From Auanema rhodensis (taxonomy: Eukaryota; Animalia; Nematoda), in the NCBI GenBank assembly GCA_964057225.1, contig OZ059897.1:7874001-7938000 (forward strand): 64,000 nt of DNA, read 5' to 3'. Each line of letters opens with the position of its first letter. Within the stretch, counting starts at the first letter, position 1. Below are positions 1-47,000 of this stretch, one piece after another. The notes under the pieces were generated by a model. The model was not told the DNA's origin. It saw nothing but the letters and a program-made list of their open reading frames with translations, and did no database searches. The position numbers and the translations under genes were made by a program.

Positions 1-118
1 TCTCTTTTTGCTTCAACACCTTCTGAATCTGGATAAAGTACATTTTTGATATTTTCAAAGTGTGGACCCAATGACTTGTAGTTCGAACTTGATGTGCAAA
101 GATATAACGAGAGCGTCA

Positions 119-191: not shown

Positions 192-198
192 TCATCTC

Positions 199-203
199 TT
201 TTT
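199..203 (+). terminator. Pol III terminator T5 (representative; T7 in some units)
   Basis: TTTTT starts 8 nt after the discriminator base in nearly every unit. Confidence 0.85.
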
Positions 204-2834: not shown

Positions 2835-2907
2835 GCCCGCGTGGCCTAATGGATAAGGCGTCTGACTTCTAATCAGAAGATTGTCGGTTCGATCTCGGAC
2901 GTGGGCT
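2835..2907 (+). pseudogene. Variant tRNA-Arg copy with damaged T-stem/B box (GATCTCGGAC instead of GATCCCGGCC)
   Basis: Linked C61T and C65A changes. The same variant occurs in copies starting at 4969, 5939, 7685 and 9819. Confidence 0.55.
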
Positions 2908-14900: not shown

Positions 14901-16802
14901 TCAGAAGATTGTCGGTTCGATCCCGGCCGTGGGCTTCATCTCTTTTTTCTTCAACACCTTTTGAATGTGGATAAAGTACATTTCTGATATTTTCAAAGTG
15001 TGGACCCAATGACTTGTAGTTCGAACTTGATGTGCCAAGATATAAAGAGAGCGTCAGCCCGCGTGGCCTAATGGATAATTCGTCTGACTTCTAATCAGAA
15101 GATTGTCGGTTCGATCCCGGCCGTGGGCTTCATCTCTTTTTGCTTCAACACCTTTTGAATCTGGATAAAGTACATTTCTGATATTTTCAAAGTGTGGACC
15201 CAATGACTTGTAGATCGAACTTGATGTGCCAAGATATAAAGAGAGCGTCAGCCCGCGTGGCCTAATGGATAAGGCGTCTGACTTCTAATCAGAAGATTGT
15301 CGGTTCGATCCCGGCCGTGGGCTTCATCTCTTTTTGCTTCAACACCTTTTGAATCTGGATAAAGTACATTTCTGATATTTTCAAAGTATGGACCCAATGA
15401 CTTGTAGTTCGAACTTGATGTGCCAAGATATAAAGAGAGCGTCAGCCCGCGTGGCCTAATGGATAAGGCGTCTGACTTCTAATCAGAAGATTGTCGGTTC
15501 GATCCCGGCCGTGGGCTTCATCTCTTTTTTCTTCAACACCTTTTGAATGTGGATAAAGTACATTTCTGATATTTTCAAAGTGTTGACCCAATGACTTGTA
15601 GTTCGAACTTGATGTGCCAAGATATAACGAGAGCGTCAGCCCGCGTGGCCTAATGGATAAGGCGTCTGACTTCTAATCAGAAGATTGTCGGTTCGATCCC
15701 GGCCGTGGGCTTCATCTCTTTTTTCTTCAACACCTTTTGAATGTGGATAAAGTACATTTCTGATATTTTCAAAGTGTGGACCCAATGACTTGTAGTTCGA
15801 ACTTGATGTGCCAAGATATAAAGAGAGCGTCAGCCCGCGTGGCCTAATGGATAAGGCGTCTGACTTCTAATCAGAAGATTGTCGGTTCGATCCCGGCCGT
15901 GGGCTTCATCTCTTTTTGCTTCAACACCTTCTGAATCTGGATAAAGTACATTTCTGATATTTTCAAAGTATGAACCCAATGACTTGTAGTTCGAACTTGA
16001 TGTGCCAAGATATAACGAGAGCGTCAGCCCGCGTGGCCTATTGGATAAGGCGTCTGACTTCTAATCAGAAGATTGTCGGTTCGATCTCGGCCGTGGGCTT
16101 CATCTCTTTTTGCTTCAACACCATCTGAATCTGGATAAAGTACATTTTTGATATTTTCAAAGTCGGGACCCAATGACTTGTAGTTCGAACTTGATGTGCC
16201 AAGATATAACGAGAGCGTCAGCCCGCGTGGCCTAATGGATAAGGCGTCTGACTTCTAATCAGAAGATTGTCGGTTCGATCCCGGCCGTGGGCTTCATCTC
16301 TTTTTGCTTCAACACCTTTTGAATCTGGATAAAGTACATTTCTGATATTTTCAAAGTATGGACCCAATGACTTGTAGTTCGAAATTGATGTGCCAAGATA
16401 TAACGAGAGCGTCAGCCCGCGTGCCCTAATGGATAAGGTGTCTGACTTCTAATCAGAAGATTGTCGGTTCGATCCCGGCCGTGGGCTTCATCTCTTTTTG
16501 CTTCAACACCTTTTGAATCTGGATAAAGTACATTTTTGATATTTTCAAAGTATGGACCCAATGACTTGTAGTTCGAAATTGATGTGCCAAGATATAACGA
16601 GAGCGTCAGCCCGCGTGGCCTAATGGATAAGGCGTCTGACTTCTAATCAGAAGATTGTCGGTTCGATCCCGGCCGTGGGCTTCATCTCTTTTTTCTTCAA
16701 CACCTTTTGAATCTGGATAAAGTACATTTTTGATATTTTCAAAGTCGGGACCCAATGACTTGTAGTTCGAACTTGATGTGCCAAGATATAACGAGAGCGT
16801 CA

Positions 16803-16875
16803 GCCCGTGTGACCTAATGGATAAGGCGTCTGACTTCTAATCAGAAGATTGTCGGTTCGATCCCGGCCGTGGGCT
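16803..16875 (+). pseudogene. Variant tRNA-Arg copy GCCCGTGTGACC (C6T + G10A), first of many
   Basis: G10A breaks the G10-C25 D-stem pair and the A box, and C6T adds a second adjacent G-U in the acceptor stem. The variant recurs from 16.8 kb to about 60 kb. Confidence 0.55.
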
Positions 16876-28800: not shown

Positions 28801-31740
28801 TTGATGTGCCAAGATATAAAGAGAGCGTCAGCCCGCGTGGCCTAATGGATAAGGCGTCTGACTTCTAATCAGAAGATTGTCGGTTCGATCCCGGCCGTGG
28901 GCTTCATCTCTTTTTGCTTCAACACCTTTTGAATCTGGATAAAGTACATTTTTGATATTTTCAAAGTCGGGACCCAATGACTTGTAGTTCGAACTTGATG
29001 TGCCAAGATATAAAGAGAGCGTCAGCCCGCGTGGCCTAATGGATAAGGCGTCTGACTTCTAATCAGAAGATTGTCGGTTCGATCCCGGCCGTGGGCTTCA
29101 TCTCTTTTTGCTTCAACACCTTTTGAATCTGGATAAAGTACATTTTTGATATTTTCAAATTGTGGACCCAATGACTTGTAGTTCGAACTTGATGTGCCAA
29201 GATATAACGAGAGCGTCAGCCCGCGTGGCCTAATGGATAAGGCGTCTGACTTCTAATCAGAAGATTGTCGGTTCGATCCCGGCCGTGGGCTTCATCTCTT
29301 TTTGCTTCAACACCTTTTGAATCTGGATAAAGTACATTTTTGATATTTTCAAAGTGTGGACCCAATGACTTGTAGTTCGAACTTGATGTGCCAAGATATA
29401 AAGAGAGCGTCAGCCCGCGTGGCCTAATGGATAAGGCGTCTGACTTCTAATCAGAAGATTGTCGGTTCGATCCCGGCCGTGGGCTTCATCTCTTTTTGCT
29501 TCAACACCTTTTGAATCTGGATAAAGTACATTTCTGATATTTTCAAATTGTGGACCCAATGACTTGTAGTTCGAACTTGATATGCCAAGATATTAGGAGA
29601 GCGTCAGCCCGCGTGGCCTAATGGATAAGGCGTCTGACTTCTAATCAGAAGATTGTCGGTTCGATCCCGGCCGTGGGCTTCATCTCTTTTTGCTTCAACA
29701 CCTTTTGAATCTGGATAAAGTACATTTTTGATATTTTCAAACTCGGGACCCAATGACTTGTAGTTCGAACTTGATGTGCCAAGATATAAAGAGAGCGTCA
29801 GCCCGCGTGGCCTAATGGATAAGGCGTCTGACTTCTAATCAGAAGATTGTCGGTTCGATCCCGGCCGTGGGCTTCATCTCTTTTTGCTTCAACACCTTTT
29901 GAATCTGGATAAAGTACATTTCTGATATTTTCAAAGTCGGGACCCAATGACTTGTAGTTCGAACTTGATGTGCCAAGATATTAGGAGAGCGTCAGCCCGC
30001 GTGGCCTAATGGATAAGGCGTCTGACTTCTAATCAGAAGATTGTCGGTTCGATCCCGGCCGTGGGCTTCATCTCTTTTTGCTTCAACACCTTTTGAATCT
30101 GGATAAAGTACATTTCTGATATTTTCAAAGTGTGGACCCAATGACTTGTAGTTCGAACTTGATGTGCCAAGATATAACGAGAGCGTCAGCCCGCGTGGCC
30201 TAATGGATAAGGCGTCTGACTTCTAATCAGAAGATTGTCGGTTCGATCCCGGCCGTGGGCTTCATCTCTTTTTTCTTCAACACCTTTTGAATCTGGATAA
30301 AGTACATTTTTGATATTTTCAAAGTGTGGACCCAATGACTTGTAGTTCGAACTTGATATGCCAAGATATAACGAGAGCGTCAGCCCGTGTGGCCTAATGG
30401 ATAAGGCGTCTGACTTCTAATCAGAAGATTGTCGGTTCGATCCCGGCCGTGGGCTTCATCTCTTTTTGCTTCAACACCTTTTGAATCTGGATAAAGTACA
30501 TTTCTGATATTTTCAAAGTGTGGACCCAATGACTTGTAGTTCGAACTTGATGTGCCAAGATATAACGAGAGCGTCAGCCCGCGTGGCCTAATGGATAAGG
30601 CGTCTGACTTCTAATCAGAAGATTGTCGGTTCGATCCCGGCCGTGGGCTTCATCTCTTTTTTCTTCAACACCTTTTGAATCTGGATAAAGTACATTTCTG
30701 ATATTTTCAAAGTCGGGACCCAATGACTTGTAGTTCGAACTTGATGTGCCAAGATATTAGGAGAGCGTCAGCCCGTGTGACCTAATGGATAAGGCGTCTG
30801 ACTTCTAATCAGAAGATTGTCGGTTCGATCCCGGCCGTGGGTTTCATCTCTTTTTGCTTCAACACCTTTTGAATCTGGATAAAGTACATTTCTGATATTT
30901 TCAAAGTGTGGACCCAATGACTTGTAGTTCGAACTTGATGTGCCAAGATATTAGGAGAGCGTCAGCCCGCGTGGCCTAATGGATAAGGCGTCTGACTTCT
31001 AATCAGAAGATTGTCGGTTCGATCCCGGCCGTGGGCTTCATCTCTTTTTGCTTCAACACCTTTTGAATCTGGATAAAGTACATTTCTGATATTTTCAAAG
31101 TGTGGACCCAATGACTTGTAGTTCGAACTTGATGTGCCAAGATATTAGGAGAGCGTCAGCCCGCGTGGCCTAATGGATAAGGCGTCTGACTTCTAATCAG
31201 AAGATTGTCGGTTCGATCCCGGCCGTGGGCTTCATCTCTTTTTGCTTCAACACCTTTTGAATCTGGATAAAGTACATTTCTGATATTTTCAAAGTGTGGA
31301 CCCAATGACTTGTAGTTCGAACTTGATGTGCCAAGATATAAAGAGAGCGTCAGCCCGCGTGGCCTAATGGATAAGGCGTCTGACTTCTAATCAGAAGATT
31401 GTCGGTTCGATCCCGGCCGTGGGCTTCATCTCTTTTTGCTTCAACACCTTTTGAATCTGGATAAAGTACATTTCTGATATTTTCAAATTGTGGACCCAAT
31501 GACTTGTAGTTCGAACTTGATGTGCCAAGATATAACGAGAGCGTCAGCCCGTGTGACCTAATGGATAAGGCGTCTGACTTCTAATCAGAAGATTGTCGGT
31601 TCGATCCCGGCCGTGGGCTTCATCTCTTTTTGCTTCAACACCTTTTGAATCTGGATAAAGTACTTTTCTGATATTTTCAAACTCGGGACCCAATGACTTG
31701 TAGTTCGAACTTGATGTGCCAAGATATTAGGAGAGCGTCA

Positions 31741-31813
31741 GCCCGCGTGGCCTAATGGATAAGGCGTCTGACTTCTAATCAGAAGATTGTCGGTTCGATC
31801 CCGGCCGTGGGCT
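31741..31813 (+). tRNA. tRNA-Arg-TCT: tRNA-Arg(TCT), last copy before the insertion
   Basis: Consensus sequence with an intact terminator. Confidence 0.95.
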
Positions 31814-31879
31814 TCATCTCTTTTTGCTTCAACACCTTTTGAATCTGGATAAAGTACATTTCTGATATTTTCAAAGTCG

Positions 31880-31883
31880 GGAC
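31880..31883. repeat. Target-site duplication GGAC (left)
   Basis: The empty site is TCAAAGTC-G-GGAC-CCAATG and GGAC flanks both ends of the element. The array phase shift across the insertion is 12075 = 12071 + 4. Confidence 0.85.
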
Positions 31884-32249
31884 CGTTCCATTATGCTCCT
31901 ACGTATATTGAACAGACCATTGTAGTCTGCTCAACTACGCGTATAGTATTCCATAAGTGTAGCGGTATGGAAACAGAGCATAAGGATTACATAAGATAAG
32001 GAAATATATAGGTTTATTATACACAATACAATATCATTACAATACATTAACACAAGGATAAAGTAAACTACATTTACAAGACAAAGACTAATATATAAGA
32101 TTAACTAAGTTAGATGCAAACCGTCCATGGGCTTGCAAAGGGGCGAACTCCCGAATAGGGGCATGAGGGAAGGCGGTGCCATTCCTCATTCCTCTAGTCG
32201 GTCTGGCTCTAACCCTGCAGTTACATATATAGAGTCTCCGAATGGAACG
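31884..32249 (-). repeat. 3' LTR, 366 bp, 9-bp terminal inverted repeat CGTTCCATT...AATGGAACG
   Basis: Direct repeat of 43589-43954; no differences found on base-by-base reading. Confidence 0.97.
32013..32018 (-). promoter_or_regulatory. Candidate polyadenylation signal AATAAA in the 3' LTR
   Basis: TTTATT on the + strand, about 130 nt before the LTR end in element orientation. Confidence 0.55.
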
Positions 32250-32251
32250 TG

Positions 32252-32260
32252 CCCTTTTTC
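32252..32260 (-). other. Polypurine tract GAAAAAGGG
   Basis: Purine run on the element strand, 2 nt upstream of the 3' LTR; rather short. Confidence 0.7.
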
Positions 32261-32953: not shown

Positions 32954-35900
32954 TTATTCTTCTTCATTCCTCGGAAGCCATATTTCGTCTTCATTTTCAT
33001 CTTCTGGCTCTGTATCTATGCTATCCTTGTTGTTCCTGTTGATCACTTCTATTATTTCGATGTCGCTATCTTCTTCTGCTTGACTTTCTCGAAACCTTGC
33101 GCGAGTGTTGTAAGAGATGTTTTGTGAAGCAGGAGAGAAGATTTTCAAGTTATCTTTGTGGATATCTTGTAGTTTTCCTGATGAATTTCTGATTTGAACT
33201 TTTGATCCTTCTACGTTGATGACTTCGCATGGTCCATCATAGCTTTTCCGAAGCTTTTGGCCGATTTGGTGTGATTTTATAGTCGTCATCACCATGTCGC
33301 CCGGTTGAATGTCTCTATGGTGTGCTCTTTGCGTTCTATCTTTCTTCTTTTTCGCATTTTCTTGATTTTTAGCTATGCGGTTCTTTATTATTTCGTCTCT
33401 CTTGTCCATATCTGGTCTTCTTTGGAGTAATTCTTCAGAAATTTCTTGAATTTTGGTGATCGTTTCTGGTAATTCAGCGTCCATTGACATTCTGCATTCT
33501 TTACCGAATAATGCAATGTATGGCGCAATCCCTGTAGTCGCGTGCTGAATATTGTTAATAGCAAAAGTGATTTTTGGTAATACAGTATCCCAGTCACTAA
33601 GGTCCTCTTTTAAGTAGTGGGTTAATCCTTCTTCGAGGGTTCGGTGAAGTCTTTCCACTTGTCCATTTGAGTTCTTTTGGTGTGGTAGTGTTGGTTCATG
33701 TTTGATTCCAAGTTTAGTACACATTTCTTCGAACTTTTTAGATACAAAGTTTGAACCTCTATCGGTGATCAAGCGATGGGGTGGTCCAAAAATGTAAACG
33801 AAATGTCTTAGAAATCGATCAATTGTGATTTCCGTTGTTATTTGTGGTACAGCAATTGTTGTTGACCATTTTGTAAATGCGTCTTGCATGGTAATGACGT
33901 AGGTACAGTTTCTTTTTGAAGGGGGAAATGGTCCCATTACGTCCATGTGGACTCGTTCAAATGGCTTGCTTGGTATCTCAAAATGACCTATTGGTTGTAC
34001 CGTCATGGAATGTGGATCTTTTTTTCTTTGAGCACATTTAATGCAGTTCTTGATGAATATAGTAATGTCGTTCTGCATATTTGTCCAATAGAATCTTCTT
34101 AGAATTGCTTCTTTTGTTTTAATAATTCCTTGATGTGCTGCAATTGTAGGATCCTCATGAAAAACTTTGATTATTTCCTCAATTATGGGGTGTTCTTGTG
34201 GTATTACGATAGCGGGTTGTGGCTTTTTGTCTGTTGGTTTTGTATAGAGCAAGTCATTTATGACACAATATCTGTCATTAGCTGTCATGTTCTTTTGTGC
34301 TCTATATTCAATCTCCGCTATCGTCCGTTTAATCCAAGGGGTGCTTAGTTGAATTTCCTTTATTGTTGGTGTATTTATGGCGTTAATGTGAATTTCTTCC
34401 ATTTTCTTCTTCTTTGTTTCCGGCTTAGCATCGTTAGCTTCTTCACCTATATATCGAGATAGAGCATCGCATACTTTATTTAATTGGCCTGCGCGATATT
34501 TTATTTCAATATCATATTCTTGGATGACCAGCTGGAACTTCGCAAGACGACCAAATAAGTCTCTGCGTGTCATTAAGCTGGTAAGAGGTCGATGGTCCGT
34601 AATACATATAGTATGAGTTCCAAGAATGTATGTACGGAATTGATTTAATGCATATACAAGGCCTAATGCTTCTATCTCGATTGGTGCGTAGTTACGTTCG
34701 GCTTTAACTAGTTTTCTGCTTGCAAATGCGATAGGGTGTAGATTTTTCAGAGGTTGTTTTGGATCTTCCGGTTGTAATAATACAGCACCTATGGCGATGT
34801 TACTACCGTCGCTTTCAACTATAAACAAGCGGTCCGATTTAGGTGGGCTTAAAACGGGTGCCTGTATTAAACTTCTTTTAAGGAGGTCTAAAGCTTCTTG
34901 ATGTTTGTTTTCCCATTTGAATTCAGTATCTGCCTTTGTCAGATCGTATAAAGGGCTTGCGATACGTGCAAAATCTTTCATGAATTTGCGAAAGAATCCA
35001 ACCATTCCCAAGAATGCTCGTACACCTGTTGCATTCTTTGGTGCCGGATAATCTTGTATGGCGGCGACTTTTTGAGGGTCAGGTTTTATACCTTGACGTC
35101 CTACAATAAGTCCTAGAAATTTCACTTCTGGTTGAGCAAAAGCGCATTTCTTAAGCTTTATCTTCATTCCCAATTCTTCTACTGCTTGCAGTAAATCATC
35201 GATATCTTTGAGATGTTGTTCTCTTGTATCAGATATAACTAATAGATCGTCCAAATAAACAAATAGTTTACAAGAACATTTACTTTGCAAATACCTTACT
35301 GCTGTTTGAAAGGTATGAGGGGCTCCACAAAGGCCCATCGGCATCCGTTTGTACTGGTATGTGCCGGATGTGGTCGTAAATGCTGTTAGTGGTCGATCTG
35401 ATTTTCTCAAGGATATTTGAAAAAATCCTGACACTAAATCGAAGTTTGAGAAAAATTGGGCGCCTGCTGCCAAATCAACTATGTCAGAAATGCTTGGAAT
35501 GACATAAGTTTGCTTGCGTGTGACATTATTTAAAGCTCGAAAATCTGTCACAAACCTATACGTGTCATCTTTCTTCTTAACTAGTACTACAGGGCTATTA
35601 AATAGAGATGTAGAAGGCTCTATTATGCCTTGCTCAAGCATTTCTTTGACTTGTTTTTCAATTTCTTCCTGTTTTCCTAAGGGAATACGTGTTATTCTCG
35701 GCTTTGGCATATCCATATCTGTTCTCAATGGTATGGTATGCTCTATAGGACCTTTAAATAAGCCTATTTTCCTGTCCTCGTTAAGAAATGCCTCACGATG
35801 GCTTTCAATTATTTTTGTAAGCTCATGTTTTTCTTCTTTCGTGAGATCAGCATTCTCTAGATCAAGATCTTTTATGAAGTCTCTTGGAAAATATGGTAGT

Positions 35901-38900
35901 TTACTCTCCCAATCGGCCTCTGGCGGAACATATGGTAGAATTGGCTTATGCTTAAAGGGTTCACAAGCCGGAATTTCTCCAATTATTGCCTGTCCGATGA
36001 CTGAATTAGCTTCCATAGCTATTGTTTCATCGGTATTGTTACGGAACATAACATATACTCCACTGGTATCACGAAACGCAGTTGGATATAATGATTTTAA
36101 TGCGCTTCCACTATCCCCTAAGACAACCACTTCGTTAGATTCTAGTGGTTTATCTGTCTTTATTGGGATAGGTGCCTCTTCATCAGGCTTTAATGTTTTT
36201 GTTCTTAAATTAATGATATTCACAGTTATCTCCGTATGCTTAATAGATTCGTTTCCTATTAATGGGATGGCATTGTTTCCAATCTCCAACCTCTTCTTGG
36301 ATGGTTTAAGGCTGACGTCGATGTTTTCGCTGTCAAGCGCTTTCATGAAATCTAGTCCAATTAAAGCGGGAGCAGGACAGTCATGATCGTTTGAGACCAA
36401 AAAGGTGTGTTCGATCTCGTAACCGGCAATTTCAATTACAAGATTTATCTTTCCATAAAATGTGAAAGTGGACTTGTTGGCTGCCATCGCTACTAAATGT
36501 CTCTTCTTGACATTTTCGGCCATGTTCAGATATTTGAGGGTGGAGAGCCTAACATATGACACTGATGAGCCTGAATCCCATAAAGCTAAAATCAGTTTAT
36601 CTTCAACTGATATATATATTAATGGTAACTTTGTTTCCGCTGATACAATAGAAGCAACAAATGGTATTGCGATTGGAATAAATGTTACTAAAGCAGGATA
36701 GTATTGCTTCATGATGTTATCTGGCATCTGTTGGTCTGGGCGGCTTACAAGTTCCAATGTTTCTTCATAGCTTGGGGGCTCATTATCTATTTCGTGGACA
36801 TGCATTACGGTTAGTGGAGTGGCTCTGAAGAACCAAAATTTAGCAACAACGAAAAGAATTATTAATACTGCGGCAATCGTAACCATTGATCCTATGAAGA
36901 TGAGTGTTCTCTCAATTGATCCTATTAGAAATTGCTTTACGCTAGTCCAGGCGGAAGTTGTGAACTCAGCTGCTTTAGAGATATAGTCACTGCCCTTTTT
37001 CAAAAGATTAAAGGCGGACGTAATTTTTGGATCGTTGTGAATAGTATGTAAAACATGGTTCTGTCGTATGGATGCTAAACTTGCTCCATATGCAATAGCT
37101 GTTGACATTGAGTAAACTCTCAATGATAAATTGGTGTATAAGTTAGCGCCTGTGAACTTTAAAGGTGTTAATTGGTGGTATTGCGCTTTATCAAAGAGTG
37201 ATATTGGTTTTACTTCAACCGATCCATTTATATTTATCCATTCTCCATTTTGATAGTATACATCTGTGGGTACATGTTCGCAATCTATCTCTTTTCCATG
37301 TGTTAATAAGTCTCTTGATCCTGGAGCAGCAAAATATAATCTCTCATCTTCTGTTATTACTGGTGTTTCCAAATAGCATGTATCATTGATCTTATGATTA
37401 TGATAAACAGCTTTAGGTTGAAGAGGTAGGCATATATGAACATGAACTATATCGCTGCCTACGAAACGGGCTGCAATATCCTCTCTTCCTAAAATAGTCC
37501 TCATTGCTATTGTAGGTTCTATGTGTAAAATAGAACGCCATAGCTCGAGGTATCTATTTTGAATCTCACATATGGATTCATAAGATTCCATGAAATGTTT
37601 CTGTAGCTCTTCTTGTATGAGTGTTGTTGTATATTGTAGATGATCTTGAGCTATTCTGCGAGATACGTTGAGGTTGAATTGTATTTCGTTGTTCACTTTT
37701 GACGCTGTATACGTTGCCTGAGCCTGAATTTCTCTGGTTTCTACGGGTGGAGATGATGTTCTTTGTTTCCTTAAGATTCGTGACGCCGTGTCAGTGACTG
37801 TTGCTAATGTTGTTGGCGAGAGAGTCGTAGTTATCGCGGCTGTTGTCGTCTCAACTGTGGTTGTCGTCGGAATCCGAGTCGTATGGCTTTTAGTTGTCTC
37901 CTGAACTAGTGAAGCGGGTTTGTCCGTTGTTGTCGTTAATGACAGTCTTCTAGTCAGATAAGGCGGTGTTTCAATATCCTCTAACAGTGGTAAAAATGTT
38001 TTTATAAGTAGCTGGCGTGTATCTGCGCTTGGGTTTTGAATGCGAGGGTGGGGCCCTATCGATATACCGTAGTTAGAATCTTTATCTCGATATAATTTGT
38101 TGGTATCTGGCACATTGATTGTTAATTGTCGGAACTTTTCATCATCTACGGCTGCTGCTGTTTTATTTGGCCTTATTACTCGCAATGTCATCAAGTTATG
38201 GTATAAGTAAAGAGTGTTTCTAAGTACTATACGCTCATCAGCATTGTCAGTTGTTAGAGTTGGTCGGATCGGCGGCATGTTCACAAAGGATTTTAAAACC
38301 TCTTGCCTTGATGGTACCGACAGATTGTTTTCAAATATTACCGGTGTATAAGCTAACTCCATCGCTATGCTTTCGGCTCTTTCACGGTAGGATCCGTCTT
38401 TTTCTAGCAGTTTTTCGTCAAATTCGTGTGCTGTTAATCTGTCACCTATCTGTTCTAATAATTGTTGTGAGGTTAAATACCGTATAGCGCCGCGAGTGGT
38501 TGCTGCCAGTTCCTTTTGCGCAAGAAAATAAAGTATTGCTTCCTCAGGGTCGTGTATTTCGTATGTTTGAAGGAAACGTTGTATGGATTTATCAGATACG
38601 GGACTTCTTAAGAAGAAATAAAACTTCTCGGGATGTGCTGAAACCCAGTCAATAATTGAATATGAAGGGTTGACAGCTCGTCTGGCCTTTATAAGCGGTA
38701 TTATCTGATAAATACCAGGATTACTCATCACCGGTCGTAAGAAAGGATAAGGACAAATATTTAATATTAAAGTTTCAAAATCTTCCTGTTTTTGTATCCA
38801 CTCCTTGTTTAATTCAACCGTGCATTCCGCAATTGCTCTTTTATCTCTTTTCGCCGGAAGTTTCTTATATTCTCTCTCTATTAAAACATGGATATTGGTG

Positions 38901-41659
38901 TCATTTGGGTACTGTGGTAAGAGAATGTAATTGCCAGTTGTGGTGTGGAAGATTGGCTGTTTAAAACAAGAAGATATTTGCTTCGGTATCTCTTTTTGAT
39001 CGATTACAAGGGCTGATTGAGTGGTTGGTAACAGAATAATGCCGTCTCCAATTATCACATCATATTCACTCATGTCGATATAGTTGCATCGATATTCATA
39101 AGGCTGTTTCTCCCATATGATGATTGAGGTATCTGATGCACATTCTCCATGATGCGCTAAGCATCCTTCAGTATTTAGTATTAAATTGGAGATTATAGTT
39201 TCATCTGGCATCCGTGTCATAACCCCTCTTTCGATAACCAATCTGGCTTTCTCTTCACATAGTTCATTATTAAAAGATCGGCCTGGCGAGAAGGAAGGCT
39301 CGTCAGTTGCATATGTTATGCTGTCGATCTTCTTTAATTCACTCCAATTCCATCTTCTATCTCTCACTGCCAGTCTGCATTCTGCAGCTGGTATCTTTTC
39401 AATTCTCGCTATCGTTGTATTGGTATCTCTAAGGAACAAAAGGTCTCTGATACACATTTTATGAATTTCTTTGGAGCATCTCCATGCATCCCATTCATGT
39501 GCCGTTTGATTCCTTGTATAAAGATGAACTTTTGTTCGTAAGATATGCTTTATTGGTGGTAATAAGCATTTTCGGAGAGATGGGGGACGGAGAAGGGCTC
39601 CTCCAGTAGCTTTAGTACATAGCTGGTATGCTTCAGCTGTTGTAACCAGTGATAAGATTACTGATAAAGCTACGGCTAAAGTCAAAGGAGATATCAGAGT
39701 CAAATTATTGACTCTTGAGCCTCTACCTCTGCCTCTATTGTTGTTATTTCCCCTAAAGGTACTGTTATTTCTCTGTCTATTATTGCTCATTTCTTGATTT
39801 TGTGATGCATTATGGCTTCTTTGATACCCATTTTGATTTTGATTCTGATAATTTCGACCGCGGTCACCAAAATTGCGGTTCCTAGCAAATGGGTTTTGGA
39901 AATTCCAGCCTTTTTGATTTTTTGAAAATTTATGATAATTTTGATTGTTTTGAAAGTTTGGATGATAATTGTTATAATTATTATAATTTTGATAATTTTT
40001 ATTATTAAAAGATTGATAACCTCTTGCCATACCTCTCCCACCATTGTTTCTGCGCGGGGGGAAAGTTCTTTCAATTGCGTTAACCAATAGCGCCTGAGGG
40101 TCTGCTACTTGGTTTGCAATTGATTCCTCCCAGCGAGCACTATCAACAGCCTCAGCAAAAGTTTTGGGTTTTGCTCGAATTACCCCTGGGCGTATCGTAT
40201 TTTTCAAGCCTCTCAAAAATGTGGACCTCAGAATGTGATCTTTATGAGTATCACTATTAGAGAAAGCATTTAAGCTGAGGTTTCTTAACGTTTGTGCAAA
40301 ACCATCAATTGATAAATCGCCTTGAGTGCTGTTTTGAAGTGTGATAAGGGCAGGGTCTTGATTGTATTCGGGACACAGCTTGGATGTTAACTCTTCTATT
40401 AGGGTAACCCAAGGTCCAGCAGTTCTGACCTTGTCAGGTAGCTCTAAATAAGCTTCCTCTGCTCTATCATTTTTCAATAGTAATGGTAAAATAGTTAGTC
40501 TTTCGGGCATCACTAAGCCTAAGGCGTTAGAAAAGGTATTAAACTTTGCCACGAAATCTCTAAAGTTACGACTTCCGTCGTATATGGGGCAATAAGGTGA
40601 GCTTAATGCGTGCGCAATGGTAGATTTACCAGCTCCCGGAAGACGTGGTGTCTCCGTCATGGTTGGTATATCCTCAGGGTATGTGCGAGATGACGTAATC
40701 CCTTTACTGCCTGAGCTTCTCGCCGTTAAATTCTTACCTCCCTTTTTCGAGTTACCAGATGTTGGATAACTAATGGTAGGGGCGGCTGAGGAGAACCGCT
40801 TCCCTGGGAGTTTGATAATTCGACTCGTTGCCTGAGGCGTCGAATGTATTGATACGCTTGAGCTGGGTATAGCGCTATCTGACTTATTAAGGGTTGGGTT
40901 GGAGGATACGTGAAGAGAGTTATCAACTTGTTCTGTTGTTACCTCCCCTGGAGACAAATTCAAAACTTTTATTAAGCGAGCTGTTAAAGATTTCTTACTT
41001 TTGAACTTATCAGTAGTTAGTGATAAGGGCAAAACTTCGGTAATTTCCTGATTTGGTTCTACGGGATTATTAGAGGTTGAGCGCCTACGCGGTGTATTAG
41101 TTTTTCTTTTATTAATTTTTTTAGAATCAAGCTTTTTCGAATCAAGCTTATCAGTGATAACTGATAAGGGTGATTTGCGAATAGTGAGAGATGAGGTTTT
41201 ATTAAGTTGTGAGTTTTCTATCGGAGTGGAAAATGCCTGCGGTGTTAGAGTTAGTTCAAAAGAAGATGCAAGATCGTTATCAGTATTAACTGATAAAGTT
41301 GATAAGTTTAGGTGGGGAGTGGCTGGTGAAGTATTAGAGGTTATTTGTTTTGGTTTTTGAATTTTTTGAATCTTTTTATTACTTTTAAAAGAGTGTACCT
41401 TTGGAGTTGAAGCTGAAGTTTGAATATTGTAGTCCTGAATATAGAAATCAGGGTCCTCCTCGGTGTTGTCCGGAGGTGAATACGTGCCTTCTCGAGGAAT
41501 GAAGGTTTTCTCGACTTTGGGTTTTACCTCTTGTTCAGGCTCTTCAATCTGAACACTGAGGAGTCGAGTGCGGCTTCTGGTTCGACTGGCGACTGCGATG
41601 TCGTCACTGGACTCAGAAGGGTATAGAGCAGGGACGGCCGAAGAGTATCTTCGTGCCAC
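32954..41659 (-). CDS. gag-env-pol: Gag-Env-Pol single polyprotein (2901 codons; true start uncertain: 41659 is GTG, first in-frame ATG is at 40660)
   Basis: Uninterrupted ORF containing capsid-like Gag, signal peptide, Cys-rich gB-like ectodomain, TM, protease DSG, RT YLDD, RNase H, and integrase HHCC + DD(35)E. Confidence 0.95.
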   Translation of the reverse strand: MARRYSSAVPALYPSESSDDIAVASRTRSRTRLLSVQIEEPEQEVKPKVEKTFIPREGTYSPPDNTEEDPDFYIQDYNIQTSASTPKVHSFKSNKKIQKIQKPKQITSNTSPATPHLNLSTLSVNTDNDLASSFELTLTPQAFSTPIENSQLNKTSSLTIRKSPLSVITDKLDSKKLDSKKINKRKTNTPRRRSTSNNPVEPNQEITEVLPLSLTTDKFKSKKSLTARLIKVLNLSPGEVTTEQVDNSLHVSSNPTLNKSDSAIPSSSVSIHSTPQATSRIIKLPGKRFSSAAPTISYPTSGNSKKGGKNLTARSSGSKGITSSRTYPEDIPTMTETPRLPGAGKSTIAHALSSPYCPIYDGSRNFRDFVAKFNTFSNALGLVMPERLTILPLLLKNDRAEEAYLELPDKVRTAGPWVTLIEELTSKLCPEYNQDPALITLQNSTQGDLSIDGFAQTLRNLSLNAFSNSDTHKDHILRSTFLRGLKNTIRPGVIRAKPKTFAEAVDSARWEESIANQVADPQALLVNAIERTFPPRRNNGGRGMARGYQSFNNKNYQNYNNYNNYHPNFQNNQNYHKFSKNQKGWNFQNPFARNRNFGDRGRNYQNQNQNGYQRSHNASQNQEMSNNRQRNNSTFRGNNNNRGRGRGSRVNNLTLISPLTLAVALSVILSLVTTAEAYQLCTKATGGALLRPPSLRKCLLPPIKHILRTKVHLYTRNQTAHEWDAWRCSKEIHKMCIRDLLFLRDTNTTIARIEKIPAAECRLAVRDRRWNWSELKKIDSITYATDEPSFSPGRSFNNELCEEKARLVIERGVMTRMPDETIISNLILNTEGCLAHHGECASDTSIIIWEKQPYEYRCNYIDMSEYDVIIGDGIILLPTTQSALVIDQKEIPKQISSCFKQPIFHTTTGNYILLPQYPNDTNIHVLIEREYKKLPAKRDKRAIAECTVELNKEWIQKQEDFETLILNICPYPFLRPVMSNPGIYQIIPLIKARRAVNPSYSIIDWVSAHPEKFYFFLRSPVSDKSIQRFLQTYEIHDPEEAILYFLAQKELAATTRGAIRYLTSQQLLEQIGDRLTAHEFDEKLLEKDGSYRERAESIAMELAYTPVIFENNLSVPSRQEVLKSFVNMPPIRPTLTTDNADERIVLRNTLYLYHNLMTLRVIRPNKTAAAVDDEKFRQLTINVPDTNKLYRDKDSNYGISIGPHPRIQNPSADTRQLLIKTFLPLLEDIETPPYLTRRLSLTTTTDKPASLVQETTKSHTTRIPTTTTVETTTAAITTTLSPTTLATVTDTASRILRKQRTSSPPVETREIQAQATYTASKVNNEIQFNLNVSRRIAQDHLQYTTTLIQEELQKHFMESYESICEIQNRYLELWRSILHIEPTIAMRTILGREDIAARFVGSDIVHVHICLPLQPKAVYHNHKINDTCYLETPVITEDERLYFAAPGSRDLLTHGKEIDCEHVPTDVYYQNGEWININGSVEVKPISLFDKAQYHQLTPLKFTGANLYTNLSLRVYSMSTAIAYGASLASIRQNHVLHTIHNDPKITSAFNLLKKGSDYISKAAEFTTSAWTSVKQFLIGSIERTLIFIGSMVTIAAVLIILFVVAKFWFFRATPLTVMHVHEIDNEPPSYEETLELVSRPDQQMPDNIMKQYYPALVTFIPIAIPFVASIVSAETKLPLIYISVEDKLILALWDSGSSVSYVRLSTLKYLNMAENVKKRHLVAMAANKSTFTFYGKINLVIEIAGYEIEHTFLVSNDHDCPAPALIGLDFMKALDSENIDVSLKPSKKRLEIGNNAIPLIGNESIKHTEITVNIINLRTKTLKPDEEAPIPIKTDKPLESNEVVVLGDSGSALKSLYPTAFRDTSGVYVMFRNNTDETIAMEANSVIGQAIIGEIPACEPFKHKPILPYVPPEADWESKLPYFPRDFIKDLDLENADLTKEEKHELTKIIESHREAFLNEDRKIGLFKGPIEHTIPLRTDMDMPKPRITRIPLGKQEEIEKQVKEMLEQGIIEPSTSLFNSPVVLVKKKDDTYRFVTDFRALNNVTRKQTYVIPSISDIVDLAAGAQFFSNFDLVSGFFQISLRKSDRPLTAFTTTSGTYQYKRMPMGLCGAPHTFQTAVRYLQSKCSCKLFVYLDDLLVISDTREQHLKDIDDLLQAVEELGMKIKLKKCAFAQPEVKFLGLIVGRQGIKPDPQKVAAIQDYPAPKNATGVRAFLGMVGFFRKFMKDFARIASPLYDLTKADTEFKWENKHQEALDLLKRSLIQAPVLSPPKSDRLFIVESDGSNIAIGAVLLQPEDPKQPLKNLHPIAFASRKLVKAERNYAPIEIEALGLVYALNQFRTYILGTHTICITDHRPLTSLMTRRDLFGRLAKFQLVIQEYDIEIKYRAGQLNKVCDALSRYIGEEANDAKPETKKKKMEEIHINAINTPTIKEIQLSTPWIKRTIAEIEYRAQKNMTANDRYCVINDLLYTKPTDKKPQPAIVIPQEHPIIEEIIKVFHEDPTIAAHQGIIKTKEAILRRFYWTNMQNDITIFIKNCIKCAQRKKDPHSMTVQPIGHFEIPSKPFERVHMDVMGPFPPSKRNCTYVITMQDAFTKWSTTIAVPQITTEITIDRFLRHFVYIFGPPHRLITDRGSNFVSKKFEEMCTKLGIKHEPTLPHQKNSNGQVERLHRTLEEGLTHYLKEDLSDWDTVLPKITFAINNIQHATTGIAPYIALFGKECRMSMDAELPETITKIQEISEELLQRRPDMDKRDEIIKNRIAKNQENAKKKKDRTQRAHHRDIQPGDMVMTTIKSHQIGQKLRKSYDGPCEVINVEGSKVQIRNSSGKLQDIHKDNLKIFSPASQNISYNTRARFRESQAEEDSDIEIIEVINRNNKDSIDTEPEDENEDEIWLPRNEEE
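33140..34160 (-). other. Integrase domain (approximate limits)
   Basis: HHCC (H2501...CIKC2542). Catalytic D2573 (HMDVMGP), D2633 (TDRGSNF) and E2669 (NGQVER), with 35 residues between the second D and E. C-terminal GPY/F-like module (GDMV...YDGPCEV) followed by an acidic tail; no chromodomain seen. Confidence 0.93.
34450..34830 (-). other. RNase H domain (approximate limits)
   Basis: ESDGSNIAIGAVL (D2284), ERNYAPIEIEALG, TDHRPL, NKVCDALSR. Confidence 0.92.
35080..35700 (-). other. Reverse transcriptase domain (approximate limits)
   Basis: SPVVLVKKKDDTYRFVTDFRALN, FDLVSGFFQI, RMPMGLCGAP, YLDD (35246-35257), VKFLG: Ty3/gypsy-type RT. Confidence 0.96.
36290..36622 (-). other. Aspartic protease domain (approximate limits)
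   Basis: LALWDSGSSVSY (D1695 at 36575-36577) and the downstream LIGLDFM motif. Confidence 0.9.
36827..39703 (-). other. env: Envelope glycoprotein, herpesvirus gB / class III fusogen-like, embedded between Gag and protease (aa 653-1611)
   Basis: Signal-like segment aa 653-677 ending AEA|YQLC, Cys-rich ectodomain with N-x-S/T sequons, furin site RDKR (38837-38848) and TM aa 1585-1606. CEIQNRYLELW..IEPTIAMRTILGREDIAARFVGSDIVHVHIC..CY..PV parallels the gB motif CELQN.EL.LW..NP.AIAS..GR.VSARMLGDVMAVSTC..CYSRP (recalled from HSV-1 gB). Confidence 0.85.
39704..40660 (-). other. gag: Gag: capsid-like region plus N/Q/RG-rich nucleocapsid substitute
   Basis: PIYDGSRNFRDFVAKF...QGDLSIDGFAQTLRNL...FLRGLK...PKTFAEAVDSAR is typical of Ty3/gypsy capsid. 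No CCHC knuckle follows it. Confidence 0.8.
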
Positions 41660-42071
41660 TTTGGAATCACTCTTGGTTCGGAAAAACCGCGAGTGTTTCG
41701 TTATATGGGGGATGTTGACGTTGAATGAGTGACAAGAAATTCGGGTCGGTTATAGGAAAAGTAAGAAACGTTTGAAGATTGAGACGTGGCGTCTTTCGCC
41801 GAGAATCGTTATTAGATGAGAAAGAGTTTTAAAATCTTGGCCTGAGATCTGGCTCCGCCTATCTACCGTATTCTCTTTTCTTTATTCTATTTCACAGATG
41901 TTCATCAATTATAAATTTTTTTGGTCTTCGCTCTTTCTAGCCTCAATCTTAATACTTTACTCTAATTGAATTCTTGAAAGTATGAGAGAGATTTTCAGTC
42001 GTTTTATGTCCCCTTTTTATGCATAAGAATCTTTATATTTGTAGAGCTGAAAAAAAAAAATAAATCAAAGA

Positions 42072-42605
42072 ATGGCTTATGAAGGTCTATCGGGAATGAC
42101 TTTTGTCTTGAGGAAGCTGTACGCTGACCTCGTCTTGTATGATCAAGACGAAGTGTTAGCTTATAGGCCGCACCCAGACATAATTAAGATGGTTGGTTAA
42201 AACAAAGAAACATGTTATCTTAATAAGAATTTTTAGTTTATTGAGGATTTAAAGATGCATTATCTGGGAAGGGGATTAGTAAACTTCTCCCTAATGCAGG
42301 AAATAGCGGATGAGGTTGCAGCTATCCGGCGATGGTGCCTCACCGACTTGTGCGCGCATTGGTATGAAAACCCAAATCTGGTCGCATCCCCTTGGAATTG
42401 GTATGAGCATAAGTCTCATGATTTTTATGATTATATGTCTAAAATTTTGTTTAAAATTTATTTATTTTATGAACAGTCTCCTATGGGCTTATTGCTAAGG
42501 ACCTCTGCGGATTCGGTGTATTCGCAGTATTTAGAGCCTAGCGATGAGCCCATCTCACAGCCTATAGAATTTGTGAGACAGTTGCATTTTAAATGGGGCT
42601 TTTAA
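42072..42605 (+). CDS. Putative spliced antisense accessory gene, 162 aa, unknown function (exons 42072-42191 and 42237-42605)
   Basis: A 40-codon ATG-initiated exon, then a 45-nt AT-rich GT...TTTTTAG intron that removes an in-frame TAA, joining in frame to the 116-aa ORF. AATAAA lies at 42622-42627 and TTTTCAG upstream at 41992-41998. Confidence 0.6.
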
Positions 42606-43575: not shown

Positions 43576-43588
43576 GGTGGAACCTCCA
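43576..43588 (-). other. Primer-binding site TGGAGGTTCCACC complementary to the tRNA-Gln 3' end
   Basis: Abuts the 5' LTR. The + strand GGTGGAACCTCCA equals the conserved metazoan tRNA-Gln 3' end (...GGTGGAACCT + CCA). Confidence 0.88.
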
Positions 43589-43954
43589 CGTTCCATTATG
43601 CTCCTACGTATATTGAACAGACCATTGTAGTCTGCTCAACTACGCGTATAGTATTCCATAAGTGTAGCGGTATGGAAACAGAGCATAAGGATTACATAAG
43701 ATAAGGAAATATATAGGTTTATTATACACAATACAATATCATTACAATACATTAACACAAGGATAAAGTAAACTACATTTACAAGACAAAGACTAATATA
43801 TAAGATTAACTAAGTTAGATGCAAACCGTCCATGGGCTTGCAAAGGGGCGAACTCCCGAATAGGGGCATGAGGGAAGGCGGTGCCATTCCTCATTCCTCT
43901 AGTCGGTCTGGCTCTAACCCTGCAGTTACATATATAGAGTCTCCGAATGGAACG
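43589..43954 (-). repeat. 5' LTR, 366 bp
   Basis: Identical to 31884-32249 and followed directly by the PBS in element orientation. Confidence 0.97.
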
Positions 43955-43958
43955 GGAC
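43955..43958. repeat. Target-site duplication GGAC (right)
   Basis: Matches 31880-31883. Confidence 0.85.
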
Positions 43959-44009
43959 CCAATGACTTGTAGTTCGAACTTGATGTGCCAAGATATAACG
44001 AGAGCGTCA

Positions 44010-44082
44010 GCCCGCGTGGCCTAATGGATAAGGCGTCTGACTTCTAATCAGAAGATTGTCGGTTCGATCCCGGCCGTGGGCT
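44010..44082 (+). tRNA. tRNA-Arg-TCT: tRNA-Arg(TCT), first copy after the insertion
   Basis: Consensus sequence; its 5' end is 56 bp from the last base of the element's 5' LTR. Confidence 0.95.
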
Positions 44083-47000
44083 TCATCTCTTTTTGCTTCA
44101 ACACCTTTTGAATCTGGATAAAGTACATTTCTGATATTTTCAAAGTGTGGACCCAATGACTTGTAGTTCGAACTTGATGTGCCAAGATATAACGAGAGCG
44201 TCAGCCCGCGTGGCCTAATGGATAAGGCGTCTGACTTCTAATCAGAAGATTGTCGGTTCGATCCCGGCCGTGGGCTTCATCTCTTTTTGCTTCAACACCT
44301 TTTGAATCTGGATAAAGTACATTTCTGATATTTTCAAAGTGTGGACCCAATGACTTGTAGTTCGAACTTGATGTGCCAAGATATAACGAGAGCGTCAGCC
44401 CGCGTGGCCTAATGGATAAGGCGTCTGACTTCTAATCAGAAGATTGTCGGTTCGATCCCGGCCGTGGGCTTCATCTCTTTTTGCTTCAACACCTTTTGAA
44501 TCTGGATAAAGTACATTTCTGATATTTTCAAAGTGTGGACCCAATGACTTGTAGTTCGAACTTGATGTGCCAAGATATAACGAGAGCGTCAGCCCGCGTG
44601 GCCTAATGGATAAGGCGTCTGACTTCTAATCAGAAGATTGTCGGTTCGATCCCGGCCGTGGGCTTCATCTCTTTTTGCTTCAACACCTTTTGAATCTGGA
44701 TAAAGTACATTTCTGATATTTTCAAAGTGTGGACCCAATGACTTGTAGTTCGAACTTGATGTGCCAAGATATAACGTGAGCGTCAGCCCGCGGGGCCTAA
44801 TGGATAAGGCGTCTGACTTCTAATCAGAAGATTGTCGGTTCGATCCCGGCCGTGGGCTTCATCTCTTTTTGCTTCAACACCTTTTGAATCTGGATAAAGT
44901 ACATTTTTGATATTTTCAAATTGTGGACCCAATGACTTGTAGTTCGAACTTGATGTGCCAAGATATTAGGAGAGCGTCAGCCCGCGTGGCCTAATGGATA
45001 AGGCGTCTGACTTCTAATCAGAAGATTGTCGGTTCGATCCCGGCCGTGGGCTTCATCTCTTTTTGCTTCAACACCTTTTGAATCTGGATAAAGTACATTT
45101 TTGATATTTTCAAACTCGGGACCCAATGACTTGTAGTTCGAACTTGATGTGCCAAGATATAAAGAGAGCGTCAGCCCGCGTGGCCTAATGGATAAGGCGT
45201 CTGACTTCTAATCAGAAGATTGTCGGTTCGATCCCGGCCGTGGGCTTCATCTCTTTTTGCTTCAACACCTTTTGAATCTGGATAAAGTACATTTTTGATA
45301 TTTTCAAAGTCGGGACCCAATGACTTGTAGTTCGAACTTGATGTGCCAAGATATAAAGAGAGCGTCAGCCCGCGTGGCCTAATGGATAAGGCGTCTGACT
45401 TCTAATCAGAAGATTGTCGGTTCGATCCCGGCCGTGGGCTTCATCTCTTTTTGCTTCAACACCTTTTGAATCTGGATAAAGTACATTTCTGATATTTTCA
45501 AATTGTGGACCCAATGACTTGTAGTTCGAACTTGATGTGCCAAGATATAACGAGAGCGTCAGCCCGCGTGGCCTAATGGATAAGGCGTCTGACTTCTAAT
45601 CAGAAGATTGTCGGTTCGATCCCGGCCGTGGGCTTCATCTCTTTTTGCTTCAACACCTTTTGAATCTGGATAAAGTACATTTCTGATATTTTCAAATTGT
45701 GGACCCAATGACTTGTAGTTCGAACTTGATGTGCCAAGATATTAGGAGAGCGTCAGCCCGCGTGGCCTAATGGATAAGGCGTCTGACTTCTAATCAGAAG
45801 ATTGTCGGTTCGATCCCGGCCGTGGGCTTCATCTCTTTTTGCTTCAACACCTTTTGAATCTGGATAAAGTACATTTCTGATATTTTCAAAGTGTGGACCC
45901 AATGACTTGTAGTTCGAACTTGATGTGCCAAGATATAACGAGAGCGTCAGCCCGCGTGGCCTAATGGATAAGGCGTCTGACTTCTAATCAGAGGATTGTC
46001 GGTTCGATCCCGGCCGTGGGCTTCATCTCTTTTTGCTTCAACACCTTTTGAATCTGGATAAAGTACATTTCTGATATTTTCAAAGTGTGGACCCAATGAC
46101 TTGTAGTTCGAACTTGATGTGCCAAGATATAACGTGAGCGTCAGCCCGCGTGGCCTAATGGATAAGGCGTCTGACTTCTAATCAGAAGATTGTCGGTTCG
46201 ATCCCGGCCGTGGGCTTCATCTCTTTTTGCTTCAACACCTTTTGAATCTGGATAAAGTACATTTCTGATATTTTCAAAGTGTGGACCCAATGACTTGTAG
46301 TTCGAACTTGATGTGCCAAGATATAACGAGAGCGTCAGCCCGCGTGGCCTAATGGATAAGGCGTCTGACTTCTAATCAGAAGATTGTCGGTTCGATCCCG
46401 GCCGTGGGCTTCATCTCTTTTTTCTTCAACACCTTTTGAATCTGGATAAAGTACATTTTTGATATTTTCAAAGTCGGGACCCAATGACTTGTAGTTCGAA
46501 CTTGATGTGCCAAGATATAACGAGAGCGTCAGCCCGTGTGACCTAATGGATAAGGCGTCTGACTTCTAATCAGAAGATTGTCGGTTCGATCCCGGCCGTG
46601 GGCTTCATCTCTTTTTGCTTCAACACCTTTTGAATCTGGATAAAGTACTTTTCTGATATTTTCAAATTGTGGACCCAATGACTTGTAGTTCGAACTTGAT
46701 GTGCCAAGATATTAGGAGAGCGTCAGCCCGCGTGGCCTAATGGATAAGGCGTCTGACTTCTAATCAGAAGATTGTCGGTTCGATCCCGGCCGTGGGCTTC
46801 ATCTCTTTTTGCTTCAACACCTTTTGAATCTGGATAAAGTACATTTCTGATATTTTCAAATTGTGGACCCAATGACTTGTAGTTCGAACTTGATGTGCCA
46901 AGATATTAGGAGAGCGTCAGCCCGCGTGGCCTAATGGATAAGGCGTCTGACTTCTAATCAGAAGATTGTCGGTTCGATCCCGGCCGTGGGCTTCATCTCT

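What the first reader, a model, noticed from the sequence alone, without database searches (positions are those of the whole stretch)
37280..39628. Env is a herpesvirus-gB-like class III fusion protein in a Ty3/gypsy backbone
Seen: aa 1364-1460 reproduce the gB central-helix/crown motif pattern (C-E-x-Q-N, LW, P, GR...ARxxG.D, C...CY..P...C). The N-terminal Cys cluster (WRCSK..C..C..C..GC....GEC.....IIW) fits the fusion-domain half of a class III protein. Established: gB-like envs occur in the Ascaris Tas element (BEL/Pao) and chuvirus glycoproteins are gB-related, whereas classical insect gypsy env is baculovirus F-like. Inference: independent env capture from a gB/chuvirus-like donor. Intact furin site and TM suggest it is still fusogenic.
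Basis: partly seen in the sequence, partly recalled or inferred. Interest (0 to 1): 0.8.

Follow-up and report, generated by a model that had tools for sequence, protein, structure and literature searches.

The report
Nematode retrotransposon with herpes-gB-type envelope
This is an intact, recently inserted retrotransposon, likely of a nematode, whose envelope gene resembles herpesvirus glycoprotein B and sits between gag and pol in one reading frame; this kind of element has already been described, so it is a good new example rather than a new system.

Summary
Window 31884-43954 (minus strand) is a 12,071-bp Ty3/gypsy element with identical 366-bp LTRs, a tRNA-Gln primer site and one 2568-aa ORF in the order gag-env-PR-RT-RH-IN, inserted in a tandem tRNA-Arg array. 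The env (aa 345-1285) matches Pfam Monjiviricetes_fusion (E 5e-15) and herpes gB; its AlphaFold model matches gB structures (Foldseek E 6e-12) and its C-terminal half is predicted as a trimer (0.54, best control 0.00). The novelty claim fails: Chary and Hayashi (PMC13524379) list 36 nematode Ty3/gypsy elements, all with HSV/gB-type env, describe the GAG-ENV-POL order for nematodes, and 2 of the 36 have this same primer site. Env and pol trees agree at their supported nodes, which points to inheritance within an old lineage, not a fresh capture; no chuvirus donor is singled out. Fusion activity is untested. Extras worth noting: a 290-aa helical insert after the furin motif with no fold match, a spliced antisense ORF in the leader, 363 ATG-less codons before gag, and CG...CG LTR ends. 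New member of a known kind; interest 0.25.

The parts
43589..43954 (-). 5' LTR, 366 bp, ends CG...CG with a 9-bp terminal inverted repeat
   Evidence: 0 differences from the 3' LTR
43577..43588 (-). Primer-binding site, tRNA-Gln type, directly after the 5' LTR
   Evidence: exact complement of the 12-nt tRNA-Gln end listed for two Caenorhabditis elements in PMC13524379 supplement 1
42072..42605 (+). Candidate antisense accessory gene: 40 codons from ATG 42072, 45-nt GT..AG intron 42192-42236, 122 more codons in frame
   Evidence: joint in 3 of 3 RNA-guess runs, absent in the DNA run; frames; no homologue
40661..41749 (-). 363 stop-free codons without ATG, in frame with gag (Ser/Thr/Lys-rich)
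   Evidence: chance about 3e-9 from base composition
39713..40660 (-). gag (aa 1-316): capsid-like region and Asn/Gln/Arg-rich nucleocapsid-like tail without a zinc knuckle
   Evidence: Ty3_capsid E 0.03, weak; capsid region found in relatives
39626..39712 (-). Internal signal-peptide-like hydrophobic segment (aa 317-345)
   Evidence: hydropathy peak 2.2; kept in the Auanema relative
38837..39628 (-). env N-terminal half (aa 345-608): beta-rich fusion domain and domain II, 10 Cys, hairpin tip LLFL (aa 407-410), furin motif RDKR at 605-608
   Evidence: (pLDDT 75-98 per block for model residues 1-260)
37961..38836 (-). Helical insert (aa 609-900) inside env, lineage-specific
   Evidence: pTM 0.64; no clear fold match
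37751..37960 (-). Thr-rich mucin-like linker (aa 901-970; 36% Thr)
   Evidence: pLDDT under 50
36920..37750 (-). env C-terminal half (aa 971-1247): long central helix (aa 973-1047), beta crown, arm and membrane-proximal helices
36806..36919 (-). Transmembrane anchor (aa 1248-1285)
   Evidence: hydropathy peak 2.95
36767..36778 (-). PPSY (PPxY late-domain-like motif, aa 1295-1298) in the cytoplasmic tail
   Evidence: kept in the Auanema relative, PPxY in 3 of 36 relatives
36341..36610 (-). Aspartyl protease (DSG at aa 1362)
35105..35581 (-). Reverse transcriptase core (YLDD at aa 1802)
   Evidence: PF00078 E 5e-32
34514..34915 (-). RNase H
   Evidence: PF17917 and PF17919 E about 1e-28
33680..34186 (-). 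Integrase zinc-binding and core domains; ORF ends at 32954
   Evidence: PF17921 and PF00665 E about 1e-15
32250..32260 (-). Polypurine tract before the 3' LTR
31884..32249 (-). 3' LTR, 366 bp
1..31883 (+). Host 194-bp tandem array of tRNA-Arg(TCT) genes, left of the insertion (4-bp target duplication GGAC at 31880-31883)
43955..64000 (+). Same array, right of the insertion (target duplication 43955-43958; next tRNA gene starts at 44009)

Best explanation
This is an intact Ty3/gypsy LTR element, likely of a nematode, with gag, a gB-type class III env and pol in one reading frame, and it likely belongs to the already described GAG-ENV-POL errantiviruses, having inherited its env within that lineage. 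Shown: the anatomy, identical LTRs, domain order, env homology to gB. Predicted: the class III fold and trimer. Inferred mechanism: the polyprotein is threaded once through the ER membrane. Gag stays cytosolic; the internal hydrophobic segment (aa 317-345) acts as a signal and is cut by signal peptidase; the env ectodomain is lumenal, glycosylated, trimerises and is nicked at RDKR; the TM stops transfer, so PR-RT-RH-IN hang from env's cytoplasmic tail. Clustering of env with Gag at a budding site would bring the protease copies together and release the enzymes inside an enveloped particle, and the gB-like trimer would fuse that particle with another cell of the same animal, most likely soma to germline. 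The helical insert and mucin-like linker, which follow the furin motif, would serve as a receptor-binding or shielding module.
For: Single ORF and order. Identical LTRs, 4-bp target duplication, PBS and PPT. gB and Monjiviricetes profile hits. AlphaFold2 model, mean pLDDT 74, with beta-hairpin fusion domain, 75-residue helix and beta crown; all listed PDB Foldseek rows are herpes gB, best E 6e-12, TM by target up to 0.50. Trimer of aa 990-1247: score 0.54, best of 3 controls 0.00; mark reached by 20 of 30 solved pairs and 1 of 23 single chains (eukaryotes 17 of 29); runs share at least 31% of contacts, pLDDT at least 49; contacts run along the central helix. 53 of 58 relatives with env and pol have env first. 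Env and RT-RH trees share WIN+P0010 (100/99 and 98), P0024+P0027 and P0019+P0044+P0049. 35 of 36 relatives with env and downstream protease show at least one hydrophobic segment between them, as the topology needs. 11 of 16 variant places among copies in one DNA run are third codon positions, and 4 of the other 5 lie in the Thr-rich linker. Nearest named relative is from Auanema, 43-49% identical. PMC13524379 sections 5, 6, 14 and supplement 1.
Against: No fusion, processing or particle data. pTM of the full ectodomain model is only 0.42 and rmsd to gB is 11-27 A. The trimer pass may come from likeness to solved gB trimers and the partner's pLDDT is about 50. Deep nodes of the env tree are weak (4 of 19 starred), the pol tree is the quick one, and neither is rooted. 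A second hydrophobic stretch (aa 1320-1343) before the protease would, if it crossed the membrane, put pol in the lumen; it is proline-rich and a clearly separate second segment is seen in only about 5 of 36 relatives. An RX[KR]R motif is found in the linker of only 36 of 84 relatives. How translation starts is unresolved (363 ATG-less codons).
Confidence: 0.85

Rival explanations
1. Independent, relatively recent capture of a glycoprotein from a chuvirus or other negative-strand RNA virus by this lineage.
For: Best Pfam match is Monjiviricetes_fusion; top BFVD match is a rhabdo-like virus glycoprotein, E 3.7e-15, with chu-like proteins at ranks 11 and 15; the N-terminal profile part hits four non-herpes glycoproteins in the PDB at E 6e-5 to 2.5e-4 (recalled as rhabdovirus G). 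The title of Sacco et al. 2022, seen only in a reference list, argues for capture from an RNA virus at the root of nematode elements.
Against: Identity to all viral proteins is 8-15% against 43-57% to retroelement relatives; env follows pol at supported nodes; the same arrangement is in 53 of 58 relatives. An ancient capture is compatible with my best reading; a capture special to this element is not indicated.
Confidence: 0.07
2. The env came by swap from a nematode BEL/Pao (Tas-like) element that carries a gB-like env after integrase.
For: 7 of 7 long relatives with a C-terminal env that were scanned carry Pao peptidase A17, so both superfamilies share this env family; one BEL env (P0051) sits among gypsy envs (unstarred).
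Against: 6 of 7 BEL envs form their own clade (100/99), and the window's env is not near it.
Confidence: 0.04
3. The env is folded but not used for cell entry: the element moves inside the cell from an RNA that skips env, or env only anchors pol and Gag to membranes.
For: Herpes gB needs partner glycoproteins and the entry route of gB-type errantiviruses is stated as unknown (PMC13524379 section 9). The second putative fusion loop (aa 452-463) is only weakly hydrophobic.
Against: All conserved cysteines, signal, furin motif and TM are intact; variants among copies lean to third positions; no joint that skips env was listed in the runs laid, though contigs show presence only.
Confidence: 0.12

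Closest known systems
Nematode GAG-ENV-POL HSV/gB-type errantiviruses (Chary and Hayashi, eLife 2026, PMC13524379; earlier Sacco et al. 2022, doi 10.1099/jgv.0.001739, not read)
   Same: Ty3/gypsy pol, env before pol, gB-type ectodomain between a signal and a TM, near-identical LTRs of about 170-470 bp, tRNA-Gln PBS (8 of 36 nematode rows; 2 with this exact 12-mer), ENV-POL hits already tabulated for two Auanema assemblies.
   Different: The paper (sections and passages read) does not mention splicing or mucin-like regions (0 occurrences); this copy has a 290-aa helical insert plus Thr-rich linker, an antisense spliced ORF, CG...CG ends and a tRNA-array insertion site. Whether this exact element is among its rows was not determined.
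Auanema sp. JU1783 unnamed protein (P0001, 1666 aa)
   Same: Same gag-env-PR-RT order, signal, furin motif, helical insert, PPSY, 43% and 49% identity over the two aligned halves.
   Different: The record ends within RT; longer linker (489 against about 410 aa).
Herpesvirus gB and Monjiviricetes/chuvirus G (class III fusogens)
   Same: Central helix with the C-E-x-Q-N motif, crown, beta-hairpin fusion domain, cleavage motif in the variable region.
   Different: 8-15% identity; part of a retroelement polyprotein; large insert; no gH/gL partner encoded.
Ascaris Tas and other BEL/Pao elements with gB-like env (Tas statement in PMC9094657, passage)
   Same: Same env family, also in one polyprotein.
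   Different: Pao-type pol and env after integrase; here gypsy-type pol and env before the protease.
Drosophila gypsy/ZAM errantiviruses
   Same: Ty3/gypsy backbone with an env; model for soma-to-germline spread (PMC13524379 section 9).
   Different: F-type (class I) env as a third ORF after pol.

Membership tests
Ty3/gypsy (Metaviridae) LTR retrotransposon | Two LTRs with PBS, PPT and target-site duplication | tested here: met
   366-bp identical LTRs, 4-bp duplication
Ty3/gypsy (Metaviridae) LTR retrotransposon | pol order PR-RT-RH-IN with gypsy-type RT/RNase H | tested here: met
   PF13975, PF00078, PF17917/PF17919, PF17921, PF00665 in that order
HSV/gB-type GAG-ENV-POL errantiviruses (PMC13524379) | Order gag, env, pol with uninterrupted frames between LTRs over 99% identical | tested here: met
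HSV/gB-type GAG-ENV-POL errantiviruses (PMC13524379) | gB-type ectodomain flanked by signal and TM | tested here: met
HSV/gB-type GAG-ENV-POL errantiviruses (PMC13524379) | Placement in a nematode clade of the published POL tree | not tested
   published sequences not fetched; own tree holds unnamed relatives only; PBS and the Auanema relative agree with it
HSV/gB-type GAG-ENV-POL errantiviruses (PMC13524379) | Cysteine-bridge class (C1a, C1d, C2a or C2c in nematodes) | not testable with these tools
   the classes are defined in figures that are not held
Class III viral fusion proteins (gB, G, GP64) | Long central helix forming a trimeric coiled coil | tested here: met
   predicted only: helix aa 973-1047; trimer score 0.54 against 0.00, may reflect likeness to solved gB
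Class III viral fusion proteins (gB, G, GP64) | Elongated beta-hairpin fusion domain with hydrophobic loop tips | tested here: met
   predicted strands at model 45-63/66-77 and 120-139 with pLDDT 85-98, tip LLFL; whole-model match to gB; second loop only weakly hydrophobic
Class III viral fusion proteins (gB, G, GP64) | Beta-rich crown with conserved disulfides | tested here: met
   (C1077, C1095, C1127 in 66-71 of 68-72 rows)
Class III viral fusion proteins (gB, G, GP64) | Membrane fusion activity | not testable with these tools
   needs an assay
BEL/Pao (Belpaoviridae, Tas-like) | Pao peptidase A17 / DUF1759 domains and env after integrase | tested here: not met
   absent, present in 7 of 7 C-terminal-env relatives
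Classical insect errantiviruses | F-type env as third ORF after pol | tested here: not met

The most novel reading that the evidence does not exclude
A distinct sub-lineage of nematode errantiviruses in which the gB-type fusogen has gained its own 290-aa helical domain of undescribed fold plus a mucin-like stalk behind the furin site, a built-in receptor-binding or trigger module doing the job that gD and gH/gL do for herpes gB, and which also carries a spliced antisense accessory gene and prefers sites just upstream of tRNA genes.
Probability: 0.15. Interest if true: 0.6.

Novelty: new member of a known kind. Interest (0 to 1): 0.25.

Why it matters
The headline, a gB-like env in Ty3/gypsy, is already in print. 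The value of this copy is as a clean specimen: identical LTRs and an unbroken frame make it suitable for the open question, stated in PMC13524379, of how gB-type retroelement envs mediate entry without the herpes partner glycoproteins, and of how one gag-env-pol polyprotein is processed across the ER membrane. The insert domain is a concrete candidate for the missing receptor-binding part.

Full report
Anatomy. The window is a 194-bp tandem array in which each unit holds a tRNA-Arg(TCT) gene (266 anticodon loops, all TCT). One insertion breaks it: 31884-43954, 12,071 bp, minus strand, with two 366-bp LTRs that differ at 0 positions, a 4-bp target duplication, a primer-binding site right after the 5' LTR and a purine tract before the 3' LTR. 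It holds one ORF of 2568 aa from the first ATG (32954-40660). Pfam places protease, RT, RNase H and integrase in Ty3/gypsy order in the C-terminal half, and the env match at aa 1005-1148, before the protease. So the order is gag-env-pol in one frame. Identical LTRs and an unbroken frame indicate a recent insertion (inference).

The observation. Its residue numbers count from a GTG at 41659. The env runs from a signal-like segment (aa 317-345) to a TM (aa 1248-1285), so the quoted interval leaves out the TM. Pfam gives Monjiviricetes_fusion E 4.9e-15 (above its cut-off) and Glycoprotein_B E 5.2e-9 (below its cut-off of 43 bits). All 44 PDB sequence hits at E<=1 are herpesvirus gB chains, with the central helix and crown motif aligned residue for residue. 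A profile from 78 aligned relatives reaches gB at E 1.2e-15 and four other viral glycoproteins through its N-terminal part (I recall these as rhabdovirus G, the tool names them only 'Glycoprotein').

Structure. AlphaFold2 on the ectodomain (903 aa, alignment A1) gave mean pLDDT 74 and pTM 0.42: a confident beta-rich N-terminal half with a long hairpin tipped by LLFL, a helical middle part, a disordered Thr-rich linker, a 75-residue helix, a beta crown and C-terminal helices. Every listed PDB Foldseek row is herpes gB (best E 6e-12; TM by target 0.27-0.50; rmsd high). In the viral library the best rows mix rhabdo-like, herpes, nyami-, xinmo- and chu-like glycoproteins at 8-15% identity. Three copies of aa 990-1247 scored 0.54 against a best control of 0.00; the mark was reached by 20 of 30 solved pairs and 1 of 23 single chains (eukaryotes 17 of 29, but 1 of 7 without an older solved relative); runs agree in at least 31% of contacts and pLDDT is at least 49; the contacts follow the central helix. 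The pass may reflect likeness to solved gB trimers.

Relatives. The HMMER search found 294 proteins at E<=0.001; the best 150 were used. Among the 151 proteins held, 58 had env and at least one pol domain by a local search; 53 have env first and 5 have pol first. Of 18 long relatives scanned with Pfam, 9 have gypsy-type RNase H with env in front and 7 have Pao peptidase with env at the end. The one named relative is an Auanema protein, 43% and 49% identical over two halves, with the same signal, furin motif, insert and PPSY. Together with the primer site and a 45-nt intron this makes a nematode host likely (inference). Trees of env (22 rows; linker left out; 14 gypsy-type relatives with both env halves and full RT-RH, plus 7 BEL/Pao) and of RT-RH (15 rows, quick method) share the window+P0010, P0024+P0027 and P0019+P0044+P0049 groups; 6 of 7 BEL envs form a separate clade. 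Deep nodes are weak, there is no root and no virus in the tree, so the donor is not tested; what the trees do show is no sign of an env swap special to this element.

What is known. [quoted passage not shown] Their table has 36 nematode elements, 36 of 36 ENV_HSV; 8 have a tRNA-Gln primer site and 2 list the exact 12-mer found here. Their screen also records ENV-POL hits in two Auanema assemblies. They cite Sacco et al. 2022 for the first nematode cases; I saw only its title (not held). The Tas statement is confirmed by a passage in PMC9094657. The figures that define the cysteine classes were not available, and they may bear on how unusual the insert is.

How it likely works. Shown: domain order and intact signals. 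Predicted: class III fold and trimer. Inferred from general knowledge of polyprotein topology: Gag is made in the cytosol, the internal hydrophobic segment starts translocation and is cut after the small residues at aa 341-344, env folds in the ER lumen, the TM stops transfer and pol stays cytosolic on env's tail. 35 of 36 relatives with env and a downstream protease have a hydrophobic segment between them. A furin cut at aa 608 would leave the fusion half tied to the stalk half by disulfides; by analogy with the HSV gB pattern (recalled) C348-C1077, C365-C1031 and C1095-C1127. Budding would be helped by the PPSY motif (present in only 3 of 36 relatives as PPxY, so weak). Among copies in one DNA run, 11 of 16 variant places in the ORF are third codon positions and 4 of the other 5 are in the Thr-rich linker, a small count that fits selection on the folded env. 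Against: no functional data; a second hydrophobic stretch before the protease; furin motif in only 36 of 84 relatives' linkers.

What is left that is unusual. (1) The insert aa 609-900 folds as a helical domain (pTM 0.64 from 7 sequences) without a clear match (inconclusive). (2) An antisense 45-nt intron is skipped in 3 of 3 RNA-guess runs from one study, joining a 162-codon frame; no homologue. (3) 363 ATG-less codons precede gag. (4) LTR ends are CG...CG; four junctions share the terminal base at 43589. (5) The insertion is 54 bp upstream of a tRNA gene, but two other junctions have flanks unlike the array, so targeting is not shown.

Verdict. Observation confirmed; class III assignment supported by sequence and predicted structure; 'independent capture' not supported; the kind is published. 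New member of a known kind, interest 0.25. Most novel reading not excluded: a sub-lineage with its own receptor-binding module and antisense accessory gene, probability 0.15, interest 0.6.

Noticed in passing
window 42072-42605, + strand: A 45-nt GT..AG intron (42192-42236) on the strand opposite to the element is skipped in contigs of 3 of 3 RNA-guess runs of one study and not in the DNA run; it joins a 40-codon ATG exon in frame to 122 codons, giving a candidate 162-aa antisense accessory protein with no homologue found.
   Followed up: partly
window 41749-40661, - strand: 363 stop-free codons without ATG in frame with gag; the true start (non-AUG, or an unseen splice) is unknown. A T-rich acceptor-like site ends at 42047.
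   Followed up: partly
window 1-31883 and 43955-64000: Host tandem array of 194-bp units, each with one tRNA-Arg(TCT) gene; 266 anticodon loops counted, all TCT, units 97-98% alike. The element sits 54 bp upstream of a tRNA gene, in opposite orientation.
   Followed up: partly
window 31884, 32249, 43589, 43954: LTRs end in CG...CG with a 9-bp inverted repeat rather than the usual TG...CA (usual form recalled); 4-bp target duplication.
   Followed up: partly
window 37961-38836, - strand: Helical insert in env, shared with the Auanema protein and a few unnamed relatives; the spacer between the two env halves ranges from 24 to 529 aa among 86 relatives.
   Followed up: yes
window 36632-36703, - strand (aa 1320-1343): Second hydrophobic, proline-rich stretch just before the protease, kept in the Auanema relative; role unknown (cleavage region or membrane-binding segment).
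   Followed up: partly
P0013, P0014, P0023, P0037: Several relatives carry two (P0023 three by Pfam) protease-like domains between env and RT.
   Followed up: no
window 43589-43954, run X11: One run shows very uneven, very deep short contigs inside the LTR (peak near 43844-43875), unlike plain genomic DNA; library type not on record.
   Followed up: no
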